DNA of 64,000 bases from Octopus vulgaris (Eukaryota): positions 6,014,001 to 6,078,000 of the forward strand of contig OX597834.1 of NCBI GenBank assembly GCA_951406725.2, written 5' to 3'. The position numbers and the translations under genes were made by a program. Under the pieces are notes generated by a model, which saw only the letters and a program-made list of their open reading frames with translations, did no database searches and was not told where the DNA came from. This document shows, in pieces, positions 5,023 through 59,949 of this stretch (position 1 is the first letter of the stretch; each line of letters begins with the position of its first letter).

Positions 5023-5151
5023 TATTTATGTATATATATATATATAGTTAATCCAAACAAGAAAAGACAAAAAAACAAAAAAACACAACAACACGAGGAC
5101 GTGGAACAAATAAAGTATTATTGGACGCTCAGGAAAGAAGGAAAGAAGGAG

Positions 5152-5187
5152 GGTTTAACGTTTCGAGCGGAGCTCTTCGTCGAAAAC
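5152..5187 (-). ncRNA. Degenerate minimal type I hammerhead motif (same family as 57950-58295)
   Basis: Minus strand gttt-TCGACGA-a-gagc-tcc-gctc-GAAA-cg-TT-aaac; core deviates from CUGANGA. Confidence 0.5.
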
Positions 5188-5473
5188 ATAGGAGAAGGAA
5201 AGATCCAGAGAAGGGGAGACAGAGGAAAAAAAATCGCCAACGGTACACATGCGGTCACATTTTGAATGACCGGATATATATACAACAGGCTTTCTTTCAG
5301 TTTTTGTCTACCAAATCCACTCACAAGGATTTCTTCTGTCTGAGGCTATAGTAGAAGACACCTGCTCAAGGTCCCACAGAGTGGATTGAACCCAAGACCA
5401 CATAACCATGCCTGCAACACTGATGAGATATATTTCCTTTAAAGTGACAGTAATTTTGATAACTATTGATAAC

Positions 5474-5890
5474 AGCGCAGGAGTGGCTGTGTGGTAAGTA
5501 GCTTGCTAACCAACCACATGGTTCCGGGTTCAGTCCCACTGCTTGGCATCTTGGGCAAGTGTCTTCTGCTATAGCCTCGGGCCGACCAATGCCTTGTGAG
5601 TGGATTTGGTAGACGGAAACTGAAAGAAGCCTGTCGTATATATGTATATATATATATAAGTGTGTGTGTGTGTGTGTTTGTGTGTCTGTGTTTGTCCTCC
5701 TAGCATTGCTTGACAACCAATGATGGTGTGTTTACGTCCCCGTCACGTAGCGGTTCGGCAAAAGAGACCGATAGAATAAGTGCTGGGCTTACAAAGAATA
5801 AGTCCCGGTGTCGATTTGCTCAACTAAAGGCGGTGCTCCAGCATGGCCGCAGTCAAATGGCTGAAACAAGTAAAAGAGAGAAAGAGAGTA
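5474..5890 (+). mobile_element. tRNA-derived SINE family A (representative). Other copies approx. 6760-7170+, 9515-10070+, 14220-14635-, 18570-18930-, 23238-23555+, 25270-25700-, 26185-26600+, 27550-27975-, 32510-32905-, 33375-33670+, 45180-45590-, 46215-46635-, 47560-47985+, 49835-50240-, 51330-51765+, 52218-52625+, 60565-61100+, 61700-62100-
   Basis: A-box tggctgtgtgg, B-box ggttcagtcc, CORE-like ccttgggcaagt, internal (TA)n(TG)n, tail ggcggtgctccagcatggccgcagtcaaatgactgaaacaagtaaaagag; repeated many times on both strands. Confidence 0.9.
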
Positions 5891-7269
5891 ACCTGGGCTA
5901 GCAATCAGGATGTTGGCTCTGAGTTTGGAAGATTAGCTTTTGGAAAAACAGGAAGTAGAAGACGACAAAATATTACAATCATCGATGGCTGGAACTGATA
6001 ACATCAGCATTATTATAGAGGAATTGAAGTGCAAGCAGAGAAGAAAGGTGGGCAAAATGTTTTTAGCTGTAGTTATAGAAGGAAATGTAATTATAAAATT
6101 CATTTCTTGTAGAGTTATAAACTCAATAATGACAAACTTAATTGCTATAAAACGACAGGAGGAGACCCTTCTGTTATCTGTTTGCAAAGAAGCAAATCAT
6201 ACAGGAATGACCTCAGCAGGTCGTCCCAGTACTAAATTATTCTATAGCTTAATAATTATGCCAATCATTGGCAACTTTTGAATGCAAAAGAGCAGTTGGT
6301 TATGATAATTTTGTTTTTTACCAAAATATGATGGGTGTAATTTTATTCCTCGAATTTGTAAACATTGCGCAAATAATAATGATGTTGATATTTCCCTAGG
6401 TTTGGGCAAGCCTACAACAATAAATCAGGCCCCTGCAGCTCTTTTGCTGCACAGCAATCAGCTGACTCCCCTAACTGGTACTGTGCCACTTCGTACCCTG
6501 GTTGATGGTCCACAACGAGCTGCCAGCAAACCTGGCAATGACAACAAAGAAAGAGAAAAATTCTATGAGCTGGTAAAGTGGGGAGTATTAACACTTGCAG
6601 TATATTCCCAGGGAAAACTCCAAAATGTTTATTTCCTTTTAAAACATTTCCTTCAGAGAAAACTACATTTAACTAACAAAAGGAAACAAAAAAGGCAGAT
6701 TAGCTAATTTTCACATAGCTTAGTGAAATCTGGGAAGAATATTTACGATATTTACAATAGGTGCAGGAGTGACTGTGTTGTAAGTAGCTTGCTAACCAAC
6801 CACATGGTTGCGGGTTCAGTCCCACTGTGTGGCACCTTGGGCAAGTGTCTTCTACTATAGCCTCGGGCCGACCAAAGCCTTGTGAGTGGATTTGGTAGAC
6901 GGAAACTGAAAGAAGCCCGTCGTATATGTGTATATATATGTATATATGTGTGTGTGTGTGTGTGTGTTTGTCCCTCCAACATCGCTTGACAACCGATGCT
7001 GGTGTGTTTATGTCCCCATCATGTAGCGGTTCAGCGAAAGAGACCGATAGAATAAGTACTGGGCTTACAAAGAATAAGTCCTGGGGTTGAGTTGCTCGAC
7101 TTTAAAGGCGGTGCTCCAGCATAGCCGCAGTCAAATGACTGAAACAAGTAAAAGAGAAAAGAGAAAGAGAGAATACTGTAAAAATCCTTTATTTTAGTAA
7201 ATTAATGATCATTTATATGTCATCTCAACAACTGCAAAGTTACACCCTGGAGATACTGAAGAATTAAGG

Positions 7270-57949: not shown

Positions 57950-58295
57950 GAAGAACAAACACAAAAAAGCAACAACACGAGGACATGGTACATGTGAAGT
58001 ATTAGCAAACACTCAGGGAAGGAAAGAAAGATGGTTTAACGTTTCGAGTGAACGCTCTTCTTCAGAAACAGAGGAAAAGTCCGATAGAAAGGAAGACAGA
58101 GGAAGAAAATCACCATTGATTCCCATGTTGTTACATTTTTCTTCCTCCGTCTTCCTTTTCTATTGGAATTTTCTTCTGTTTCTGAAGAAGAGCTTTGCTT
58201 GAAACATTAAACCATCTTTCTTTCCTTCCCTGAGCGTCTGCTATACTTTACATGTACCACATCCTCGCATTGTTGCTTTTTTGTGTTTGTTCTTC
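57950..58295. mobile_element. Head-to-head pair of a minimal-hammerhead repeat (HHR 58034-58069 on minus, 58178-58212 on plus)
   Basis: gttt-CTGAAGA-a-gagc-nnn-(g/a)ct(c/t)-GAAA-c(g/a)-TT|aaac on both arms; arms are reverse complements. Confidence 0.75.
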
Positions 58296-58904
58296 ATTTT
58301 ATATATATATATATATATGTGTGTGTATGTATGTATGTGCATATATATATATGTATGTATCATCATCATCATCATCATCGTTTAGCGTCCGTTTTCCATG
58401 CTAGCATATATGTATATATATATGTGTGTGTGTATATATATGTATATATATACATATCTATATATATATGTGTGTGTGTGTATGTATCTGTATATATATA
58501 TATATGTATATATATATATATATATATATGTATGTATATACATATCTATATATATATGTGTGTGTGTATGTATATATTATATATGTCTATGCATATACAC
58601 ACACATGCACACACACACACACACACACACACACACACACACACGTAAGTGTGTGTCTTTATGTTTGACCCCCCCCCCCCACTGCTTATGAACCTTTGTT
58701 CATATACATACTGATGACCTAGCAGTTCAACAAAAAAGGACCAAAATAATAAGTATCAGGCTTAAAGAAAAAGTACTGGTAATACAGTTCTATATTTAAG
58801 AGATGAGGAATTATGTACATTATTTACATTATTTACATTTGACGGATACTTGTCCTCATCTTGTTTGTTGTTAACATGTTTCAGCTGATATATATTATTA
58901 TTCA

Positions 58905-59042
58905 GCTCACTGCCTGGAATTGAACTCAGAATCTTGGGGTTAGTAGCCCGCGATCTTAACCAGTGCACCATATGCCCGTGGGTATAGTGGTTAAAAGCAT
59001 GGGTTACTAACCCCAAGATTCCAAGTTCGATTCCAGGCAACC
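58905..59042. other. Inverted pair of tRNA-like (SINE head) sequences, anticodon loop CTACTAA
   Basis: tagtggttaa A box, gttcgattcc B box; arms centred on tatgcccgtgggtata. Confidence 0.6.
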
Positions 59043-59949
59043 TTAACCAGTTGAGCAAGTCCCTTAGTGGCTGATGATTTGTGCATAATCAAGAGCAGAT
59101 AGTAATAATAATAACCATAATAATGATAATAATAATAATAATAATAATAATAATAATAATAATAATAATAATGATAATGATAACAAAAACAACCCTTATT
59201 CAGGGACCTTTTGAGTGGGATGGGTAACCCAACCAGAAGAAAATTCTAACTGGGCCCCACGCGCAAGGTCATGCGCTGTTTATCTTGTTATGAGATCACC
59301 ATGTCGCACACATATGGTTGTGATGCATGTGCCTGGTGTACCCTTATCAGACGGGTAGTCATGATGGGTATACTGGGCTTCGTATATTTGTACCCCAGTG
59401 TCACTTTGATGGTATGCACTGCTCTCTCACTCAATAATAATAATAATAATAATAATAATAATAATAATAATAATAATGATAATGATAACAAAAACAACAA
59501 CATCGAAAAAAAGCTTAGGAGTGAGATCCCAGGTTTGAAATTTCCCCCCAAGACACCTGACGAATGCTGGGTTAGGGTTAGGGTTAGGGTTAGGGGTGGG
59601 GGAAGGGAGCCTTTTTTTTCTTCACAAAATGTAAATAAACCCAATCTGTTTATTAAACAAGGGACATACTCATACGGCACAGAATGTATTTTACCTCAAT
59701 AGACGTCAGTGATTGGTTGAAATTGCAGAAATATCAGCTGAAACACTGCGGTAACAACAAACAAGATGAGGACAAATATCCGTCAAATGTAAATAATGTA
59801 AATAATGAAAAGTACTGGTGTTGATTTGTTCAACCAAACCCCTTCAAGGCAGTGTTCCAGCAAAGCCGAAAGGCAGTGACTGAAACAAATACAGGATTTA
59901 TCTCTCACGCTTAATTAAGGCATGCTTTAAGTGGTATATGTTACACTTT

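What the first reader, a model, noticed from the sequence alone, without database searches (positions are those of the whole stretch)
5040..59820. Extreme density and diversity of hammerhead motifs: about 8 unrelated families in 64 kb
Seen: cores at 5152-5187(-), 9730-9802(+), six in 29.3-32.1 kb, 34536-34570(+), 35192-35241(+), 44225-44363(-), 53305-53354(+), 53734-53832(+), 58034-58069(-), 58178-58212(+), and a split one at 59553-59750(+). All are type I with very short, mostly palindromic stem III (cg, catatg, cagctg, cgtacg, cggtatatcg). That form is known to favour cleavage via dimeric hammerheads. Inference: if this window is typical, the genome hosts a very large, under-annotated ribozyme-retroelement ecosystem.
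Basis: partly seen in the sequence, partly recalled or inferred. Interest (0 to 1): 0.7.

Follow-up and report, generated by a model that had tools for sequence, protein, structure and literature searches.

The report
Penelope-type hammerheads; arrays copied two-sided
This stretch holds an unusually dense patch (about 8-15 times the genome average) of hammerhead RNA motifs, predicted to self-cut, that sit in Penelope-type jumping elements and their likely non-coding parasites, a kind known from many animals; its one young 494-base array family leaves a footprint suggesting that both ends of the cut DNA were likely copied round and round from one small RNA circle.

Summary
The motifs are real. 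A strict type I descriptor finds 11 in the window against 0.02 in shuffles. Several listed copies are decayed, truncated or split. The window is not typical: 78 blind 10-kb samples gave 9 hits (0.74 per 64 kb, roughly 15,000-61,000 genome-wide), a density like that published for coral or axolotl.

Two families are the 3' ends of coding Hydra-clade Penelope-like elements (PLEs). Two are non-coding tandem units (retrozyme type). This kind of system is in print.

The less ordinary part is the 494-bp family. In 39 arrays, insertions sit in (TA)n as two tail-out arms. One arm ends at site A and the other at site B (31 AB, 0 AA, 0 BB). Every array carries one haplotype, and later mutations are nearly all singletons (92 of 97). 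That fits two-sided target-primed, rolling-circle reverse transcription of one monomer by a PLE enzyme. This is inferred: cleavage, circles and the mobilising enzyme are untested. This scan noted the same footprint before, in this genome and others.

The parts
29245..32274 (.). Family F3 array: 494-bp non-coding hammerhead unit; left arm (-) 3.5 units ending at site A, right arm (+) 2.6 units ending at site B, both ends in (TA)n; inversion junction at 30975/30977; six intact hammerheads (C3 at 29467, 29960, 30453, 30946 on -, 31454, 31948 on +) and one truncated
   Evidence: 791 exact copies of the 3' half of the motif genome-wide
5032..5259 (-). Family F1 copy, minimal hammerhead with extra A; core decayed (C3 to U)
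   Evidence: 9,989 exact pattern matches genome-wide, control 0
57929..58298 (.). Two F1 copies as a tail-out inverted pair: 58065(-) intact, 58182(+) decayed
9728..9885 (+). Family F2 copy: 3' end of a Hydra-clade PLE, 5'-truncated at the hammerhead core, inserted in a SINE with a ~50-bp target duplication
   Evidence: family majority is an intact hammerhead, 21 of 24 copies pass
34587..34916 (-).
34480..34590 (+). Family F4 copy: minimal hammerhead-like motif with weak stem I
   Evidence: 1,440 candidates, best 89-94% identical
35190..35338 (+). Family F5 copy ending at its long (B) end, intact motif, non-palindromic stem III
53218..53387 (.). Two-armed F5 insertion (left arm long end, right arm short end), motif at 53315(+)
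53428..54013 (+). Family F7 copy: 600-bp non-coding hammerhead unit with a short inverted arm; intact motif at 53743
44080..44373 (-). Family F6 copy, old repeat with hammerhead-like boxes and 2-bp stem I; ribozyme status unproven; second decayed copy at 51810-52017(-)
59451..59806 (+). Family F8 copy in (TAA)n, hammerhead split by a ~157-bp insertion (about 59572-59730); inverted partner arm at 58779-58962
   Evidence: family majority intact, 12 of 20 copies pass

Best explanation
The window is a locally rich patch of dispersed repeats whose hammerhead motifs are the pseudo-LTR ribozymes of Penelope-like retroelements (two families lie directly downstream of Hydra-clade coding sequence) and of non-coding units that likely use the same enzymes, and the 494-bp arrays were likely made by two-sided, rolling-circle reverse transcription of one monomer RNA. 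Shown: motif anatomy; repeat families; linkage of F2 and F9 to Hydra endonuclease frames; (TA)n targets; tail-out arms with one A end and one B end; one haplotype per array. Inferred: (1) a multimeric transcript self-cleaves at the hammerheads, probably as dimers, and the monomer is ligated to a circle; (2) a dimeric PLE RT-GIY-YIG protein binds the RNA and cuts both strands of a (TA)n tract; (3) one DNA end primes at internal site A and the other at site B, 105 nt downstream; (4) each RT goes round the circle 0.1-9 times; (5) the two cDNA ends are joined head to head. Most dispersed copies are dead 5'-truncated remains. Confidence: PLE/retrozyme identity about 0.9; two-sided A/B priming about 0.75; circular template about 0.5.
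For: Hydra linkage: frames with CxCX5C, CxxC and CxH lie upstream of F2 and F9 (weak GIY-YIG Pfam hits E 0.006 and 0.0006, below cut-off). 13 of 30 Hydra endonuclease loci have a strict sense hammerhead within 1.5 kb downstream. A 947-aa open frame with RWK, DKT and YRDD motifs is followed by an F9-type hammerhead. Stems covary in 9 F9-type copies: 97.9% of cells paired, 8 of 16 pairs with two-sided change, slid controls 27-44%. An intact 781-aa RT+GIY-YIG PLE is present in many copies and carries a U3-A8 hammerhead-like motif. F3: of 39 arrays 31 are A+B with arms >=60 nt, 0 AA, 0 BB; 4 more have a very short opposite arm. Variants 343T and 153T never mix within an array (0 of 36, 0 of 38). 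Five variants are private to one array and fixed in it, three of them in both arms; 0 of 48 unit-specific variants are mirrored between arms. Of 97 non-fixed events 92 are singletons and 1 is shared by adjacent units. The partner arm has the other end in F2 14 of 14, F5 16 of 16, F9 8 of 9, F7 4 of 5 (flanks) and the Neptune-type element 3 of 3. Two internal RT start sites and extension of both strands are shown in vitro for a lizard PLE (PMC11167929).
Against: No cleavage, circle or transcript was shown. No coding partner was found for F1, F3, F4, F5, F6, F7 or F8 in about 2 Mb of held loci. In vitro, hammerhead cleavage was not needed for PLE insertion and unprocessed RNA was the main substrate (PMC11167929); only 1 of 9 Xenopus retrozyme dimers cleaved (bioRxiv 10.64898/2026.07.22.740005). 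Homogeneous parent arrays copied as linear multimers also give one haplotype per daughter. Singletons may include assembly errors. One F9 insertion has the long end on both arms (L246). F8 arms end at the same place within a short repeat. The 39 arrays were the best hits of one query, so they are biased to long arms. The covariation shuffle control does not correct for relatedness.
Confidence: 0.62

Rival explanations
1. Same PLE machinery and two-sided priming, but the template is a linear multimeric transcript of a parent array, and the hammerhead is a passenger or only trims the transcript.
For: Unprocessed RNA was the main substrate in vitro (PMC11167929). 12 of 70 arm 5' ends lie within 0 to +18 nt of the cleavage site (2.7 expected, P 1e-5; 0.0025 after allowing any 19-nt window), as expected if some templates have a linear 5' end there. 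One F7 arm also starts at +3.
Against: 0 of 48 unit-specific variants are mirrored between the two arms, and none at register shifts of 1 or 2. Private variants fixed in 5-6 units need a monomer-to-multimer step somewhere. The 5' pile-up also fits RT stalling at helix I or run-off on a re-cleaved circle.
Confidence: 0.22
2. Insertions were short partial tandems, and the arms grew afterwards at the DNA level by unequal crossing-over (the satellite-birth model of Li, Clavereau and Pollet).
For: This would also fix private variants in an arm. It is the model stated in bioRxiv 10.64898/2026.07.22.740005.
Against: Gradual duplication should leave variants shared by neighbouring units; only 1 of 97 non-fixed events is. 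Arm lengths run continuously from 0.15 to 9.35 units, and the mean is the same for A and B arms (2.4).
Confidence: 0.1
3. The RT re-copies one linear monomer by repeated template jumps at the cleaved ends (pseudo rolling circle), or the inverted arm arises by self-priming on an antisense template.
For: Template jumps give the same single-haplotype result. Self-priming on an antisense template was proposed for head-to-head PLE repeats (PMC3846280, passage).
Against: 164 of 171 traversed cleavage junctions keep an exact 24-mer, so jumps would have to be nearly perfect. Self-priming does not explain why the two outer ends are one A and one B.
Confidence: 0.06
4. The motifs are chance matches in AT-rich repetitive DNA.
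For: Rfam finds none. One or two of the 9 blind-sample hits may be chance (shuffles gave 0-2, mean 0.6). F6 and F4 are unproven.
Against: 11 against 0.02 in shuffles. Family majorities of F1, F2, F5, F7, F8 and F9 are intact hammerheads. Stems covary.
Confidence: 0.01

Closest known systems
Minimal hammerheads of metazoan Penelope-like elements (Cervera and de la Pena 2014, PMC4209133; parts 1-2 of 4 read: abstract, results, discussion)
   Same: [quoted passage not shown]
   Different: Several families here have 55-70 nt (F6 about 110 nt) stem II domains and a U4C core variant. No cephalopod is named in the parts read.
Hydra-clade PLEs (Craig et al. 2021, PMC8557442; sections 6 and 11 and passages read)
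   Same: C-terminal GIY-YIG; RWK, DKT, CxCX5C, CxxC and CxH motifs; no CCHH; hammerhead in the 3' repeat; (TA)n target; inverted 5'-truncated copy with a tail at one end.
   Different: Far more abundant here (16,815 first-look candidates) than the small number of families described. Tails are 65-150 nt rather than 30-40. There is a long Asn-rich linker. No phylogeny was built.
Metazoan non-LTR retrozymes (Cervera and de la Pena 2020, PMC7229834, passages; Li, Clavereau and Pollet 2026, bioRxiv 10.64898/2026.07.22.740005, parts 1-3 of 5 read)
   Same: Non-coding tandem units with one type I hammerhead each; low GC; highly self-paired as a circle (z -5.3 against 40 shuffles); proposed to be non-autonomous PLE derivatives spread through circles.
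   Different: Units of 494 and 600 nt are longer than 170-400 nt, though inside the 51-972 range of the 2026 preprint. Two tail-out arms with fixed paired ends and one haplotype per array are not described in the passages read. Circles are not shown here.
Anolis Poseidon PAc in vitro (Frangieh et al. 2024, PMC11167929; parts 1-2 of 4 read)
   Same: Two internal RT start sites define the tail; both target strands are cut and extended; AT-rich target; predicted protein dimer.
   Different: That study saw no difference in start site between strands and did not report paired use of the two sites or multimeric cDNA; here each insertion uses one of each.

Membership tests
Type I hammerhead ribozyme | Conserved core (CUGANGA, GAAA, UH) with three helices in type I order | tested here: met
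   11 window copies pass; family majorities of F1, F2, F5, F7, F8, F9 pass; F6 does not; F4 majority not examined
Type I hammerhead ribozyme | Compensatory changes in stems | tested here: met
   F9-type alignment of 9 copies, 8 of 16 pairs with two-sided change; other families not tested
Type I hammerhead ribozyme | Self-cleavage (monomer or dimer) | not testable with these tools
   Only an indirect hint: 12 of 70 arm 5' ends near the cleavage site, which RT stalling also explains
Hydra-clade PLE (F2, F9) | C-terminal GIY-YIG with CxCX5C linker, CxxC and CxH, no CCHH | tested here: met
   Pfam GIY-YIG only below cut-off
Hydra-clade PLE (F2, F9) | Single ORF with RT carrying RWK and DKT motifs | tested here: met
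   947-aa frame in a relative about 65% identical in the endonuclease, with an F9-type hammerhead downstream; no Pfam RT hit at 1e-3; RT of F2 itself not seen
Hydra-clade PLE (F2, F9) | Placement in the Hydra clade of an RT phylogeny | not tested
PLE-type insertion (all families) | Partial tandem or inverted arrangement, tail at one end, microsatellite target | tested here: met
   F2, F3, F5, F7, F9; F1 and F8 inverted pairs seen, tail not resolved; F4 and F6 not examined in this way
Non-LTR retrozyme (F3, F7) | Non-coding tandem units, one type I hammerhead per unit | tested here: met
   F3 1.2-9.4 units per locus, longest ATG-started frame 66 aa; F7 600-bp period but at most about 1.4 units per arm seen
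Non-LTR retrozyme (F3, F7) | Expressed as monomeric linear and circular RNA | tested here: inconclusive
   No RNA holder listed; contigs cannot separate circle from multimer
Non-LTR retrozyme (F3, F7) | Homology to the pLTR of an autonomous PLE | tested here: inconclusive
   No match in 30+6 Hydra and 30+20 Neptune-type loci or other held loci; only a small part of the genome's PLEs was sampled

The most novel reading that the evidence does not exclude
A Penelope-type reverse transcriptase dimer loads on one ~494-nt ribozyme-made RNA circle, primes from both ends of a double-strand cut at two fixed, different sites on that circle, and copies it by rolling circle in both directions at once. The one-A-one-B rule holds for coding Hydra and Neptune-type elements too, so it would be the general PLE integration mechanism. 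The arrays would be the first genomic record of the long-proposed circular-RNA step of retrozyme spread.
Probability: 0.45. Interest if true: 0.68.

Novelty: new member of a known kind. Interest (0 to 1): 0.42.

Why it matters
The census adds a cephalopod-type genome (taxon inferred) to the list of animals with tens of thousands of PLE hammerheads; that alone is ordinary. The array footprint matters more. The role of the hammerhead in PLEs and the circular template of retrozymes have been assumed since 2014 but not shown, and the one in vitro study found the ribozyme dispensable. A young family with about 300 loci (791 motif copies at about 2.6 per locus, estimated from the first 100 rows), fixed paired ends and single-haplotype arrays gives exact predictions: two start sites 105 nt apart, one per strand, and multimeric cDNA from a circle. 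Intact candidate enzymes exist in the same genome (781-aa Neptune type, 947-aa Hydra type), so a reconstitution is feasible.

Tried and rejected
Rfam: no family at gathering score; no hammerhead in the 150 of 177 rows shown at E<=10. The long stem II loops and minimal forms probably escape the models.

Expression: no RNA holder listed. Contigs of four runs only guessed to be RNA cover the unit, and three show the unit-to-unit joint. This cannot tell circle from multimer or RNA from DNA, so it is not used as evidence.

U3-A8 core scan: 0 in the window, 1 in the blind sample, shuffles 0-1.

Search for a coding partner of F1, F3, F5, F6, F7, F8 in flanks and PLE loci: none found. Hammerheads near the Neptune-type GIY-YIG loci (7 of 30 loci) were separate insertions in the (TA)n tracts where I inspected them.

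A motif-based A/B tally was noisy because the A pattern matched internally; the BLAST end mapping was used instead. L1-style twin priming was rejected because the two arms overlap in sequence and the junction is not at the internal priming site.

Other CUGANGA cores (13026, 32372, 33166, 38927, 39808, 50892, 59071) fail the descriptor and were not counted.

Rows left out of the variant counts: arms under 60 nt or under 95% identity, positions in or beside A/T runs of 5 or more, and position 219 (beside a T run; it did appear mixed within arrays).

Literature searches that found no octopus hammerhead census and no paired-end or rolling-circle genomic evidence. An Octopus vulgaris repeat annotation (PMC13282606, passages only) has 0 occurrences of hammerhead, ribozyme or retrozyme. 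The library lacks most subscription papers. Supplements of the 2014, 2020 and 2021 papers were not opened and those of the preprint are closed; they may list cephalopod motifs. The paper showing dimeric cleavage of PLE hammerheads (Lunse et al. 2017) is recalled, not read.
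Full report
Observation. The window lies in a 2.8-Gb animal genome (G000:C21). Its SINEs and size suggest an octopus (my recall, not tested). Every listed site holds a hammerhead motif or a remnant of one. A strict type I descriptor finds 11 motifs; 50 dinucleotide block shuffles give a mean of 0.02. An eleventh at 34746(-) was missed. The other five are: 5183 (C3 mutated), 58182 (decayed), 9730 (5'-truncated at the core), 34536 (weak stem I) and 44360 (2-bp stem I). 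The split site at 59557 is confirmed as an F8 copy broken by a ~157-bp repeat insertion. Family majorities of F1, F2, F5, F7, F8 and F9 are intact hammerheads; in F6 0 of 14 copies pass. Rfam finds none.

Is the window typical? No. I fetched 80 10-kb stretches at round-number positions on 16 contigs and left out the two adjoining the window. The other 78 (779,800 bases) gave 9 strict hits, against 0-2 in 10 shuffles. That is 11.5 per Mb (95% interval 5.3-21.9), or about 32,000 genome-wide (15,000-61,000). The window is about 15-fold above this, or 8-fold if the array counts once. An exact pattern for F1 alone matches 9,989 times, control 0, in line with the sample. Published numbers are of the same order: over 6,000 motifs in 16 families in a coral (genome about 0.45 Gb, recalled), 126,247 in the 28-Gb axolotl genome, about 9,000 in Xenopus tropicalis. 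Descriptors differ between studies, so the comparison is rough.

What the families are. All nine are dispersed repeats. First-look candidates: F1 6,538, F2 1,397, F3 790, F4 1,440, F5 438, F6 977, F7 2,307, F8 1,090, F9 2,780; these are lower bounds, not copy numbers. The longest F2 and F9 copies run upstream into GIY-YIG-like frames with the CxCX5C, CxxC and CxH motifs and no CCHH. That is the published signature of Hydra-clade PLEs, which also insert into (TA)n. This endonuclease has 16,815 candidates in the genome. 13 of the 30 best loci have a strict sense hammerhead within 1.5 kb downstream. A relative has a 947-aa open frame with RWK, DKT and YRDD motifs followed by an F9-type hammerhead, though Pfam gives it no hit at 1e-3. 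Across 9 F9-type copies 97.9% of stem cells pair and 8 of 16 pairs show two-sided changes (relatedness not corrected). A second, Neptune-type PLE (clade label from recalled motifs) has an intact 781-aa RT+GIY-YIG frame in 16 of the 20 loci fetched, which were chosen for long frames, and a U3-A8 hammerhead-like motif near its 3' end. F3 (494 bp) and F7 (600 bp) are non-coding periodic units that share an 18-nt motif and a similar end motif. For F1, F3, F5, F6, F7 and F8 no coding partner was found in the loci held; F4 flanks were not fetched.

The array footprint. I fetched all 38 other F3 loci scored; they are biased to long arms. Nearly all are two arms pointing outward, both ends in (TA)n. 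One arm ends at unit position 132 (site A) and the other at about 237 (site B). With arms of 60 nt or more there are 31 AB, 6 B-only, 2 A-only, 0 AA and 0 BB; four of the eight single-arm cases show a very short arm of the other type. In the first 100 position-ordered matches, all 19 loci with both strands (of 38) are in minus-then-plus order. The partner arm carries the other end in F2 (14 of 14), F5 (16 of 16), F9 (8 of 9; L246 has the long end twice), F7 (4 of 5) and the Neptune-type element (3 of 3). F8 cannot be resolved. A tail at one end of inverted PLE insertions is in print, and two internal RT start sites with extension of both strands were shown in vitro. Paired use of the two sites was not reported in what I read.

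Haplotypes. Two common variants never mix inside an array: 343T, 17 all-variant, 19 all-other, 0 mixed of 36; 153T, 8, 30, 0 of 38. Five variants are private to one array and fixed in all its covering units, three of them in both arms. None of 48 testable unit-specific variants is mirrored in the other arm. At positions covered by three or more units there are 92 singleton, 28 fixed, 4 non-adjacent shared and 1 adjacent shared events. Homopolymer-adjacent positions and position 219 were left out. Arms are 0.15-9.35 units long, mean 2.4 for both types, and 164 of 171 traversed cleavage junctions are exact. The simplest reading is that each array was amplified from one monomer at the time of insertion, with both arms copied from it. 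A circular template does this; gradual unequal crossing-over should leave variants shared by neighbours. The unit folds as a self-paired circle (z -5.3).

Results against that reading. 12 of 70 arm 5' ends fall within 0 to +18 nt of the cleavage site (2.7 expected). That suggests some linear cleaved templates or RT stalling at helix I. Homogeneous parents copied as linear multimers also give single-haplotype daughters. In vitro the ribozyme was dispensable for insertion, and 8 of 9 Xenopus dimers did not cleave. Singletons may include assembly errors. No expression evidence could be obtained.

Mechanism, committed. Shown: motif anatomy, families, Hydra linkage, targets, A/B pairing, single haplotypes. 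Inferred: hammerhead cleavage of multimeric transcripts, ligation to a circle, a PLE RT-endonuclease dimer cutting (TA)n, priming at A from one DNA end and at B from the other, rolling-circle synthesis, head-to-head joining. Dispersed short copies are 5'-truncated products of the same process, mostly dead.

Verdict. The system is a new member of a known kind (PLE pLTR hammerheads and non-LTR retrozymes). The two-sided, single-haplotype footprint is the part worth following. Earlier AI notes of this scan report the same footprint for a ~495-bp family in this genome and for 310-479-bp families in other genomes. I read them after my own analysis, and they are not independent support.

Noticed in passing
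window 37428-43162 (-): A long LINE with endonuclease (PF03372), RT (PF00078) and zf-RVT (PF13966) frames in separate reading frames, and upstream ORF1-like frames; looks L1/Tx1-like (label recalled).
   Followed up: partly
window 33662-34010 (+): Broken GIY-YIG endonuclease fragment of a PLE (weak hit to a profile built from the genome's PLE endonucleases), followed by what looks like an RTE LINE end; not shown to be linked to the hammerhead at 34536.
   Followed up: partly
window 28995-29135 (+): Fragment of a further hammerhead family with a 10-nt palindromic stem III (seen intact in L114 and L023), truncated just after the ribozyme, next to the F3 array.
   Followed up: partly
window 20482-20900: Inverted pair of another repeat with a CUGAAGA box and no matching GAAA half; relatives form inverted pairs in L175 and L185. 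Possibly a decayed PLE end.
   Followed up: partly
L276-L295 (G000, several contigs): Young Neptune-type PLE with an intact 781-aa frame, an upstream 479-aa frame in another reading frame, tandem repeats in the 3' UTR and a U3-A8 hammerhead-like motif; many copies have a T in the stem II base that may weaken it.
   Followed up: partly
L346-L350: Hydra-type PLE proteins with long Asn-rich linkers between RT and endonuclease, like the N-rich inserts described in rotifer Penelope elements.
   Followed up: no
L175:7042-7400 and L177:1519-1994: Older relatives of the 494-bp unit (72-74% identical), also two-armed in (TA)n.
   Followed up: partly
window 53303-53387 and F5 loci L201-L225: In many F5 insertions both arms begin at the long helix I inverted repeat, so the hammerhead stem itself may supply the microhomology that joins the two arms.
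   Followed up: partly
window 59572-59730: A frequent ~157-bp repeat beginning with TTAGGG units inserted into a hammerhead loop.
   Followed up: no
window 33140-33192: A perfect ~50-bp hairpin with a CUGAUGA at its centre, not a hammerhead.
   Followed up: no
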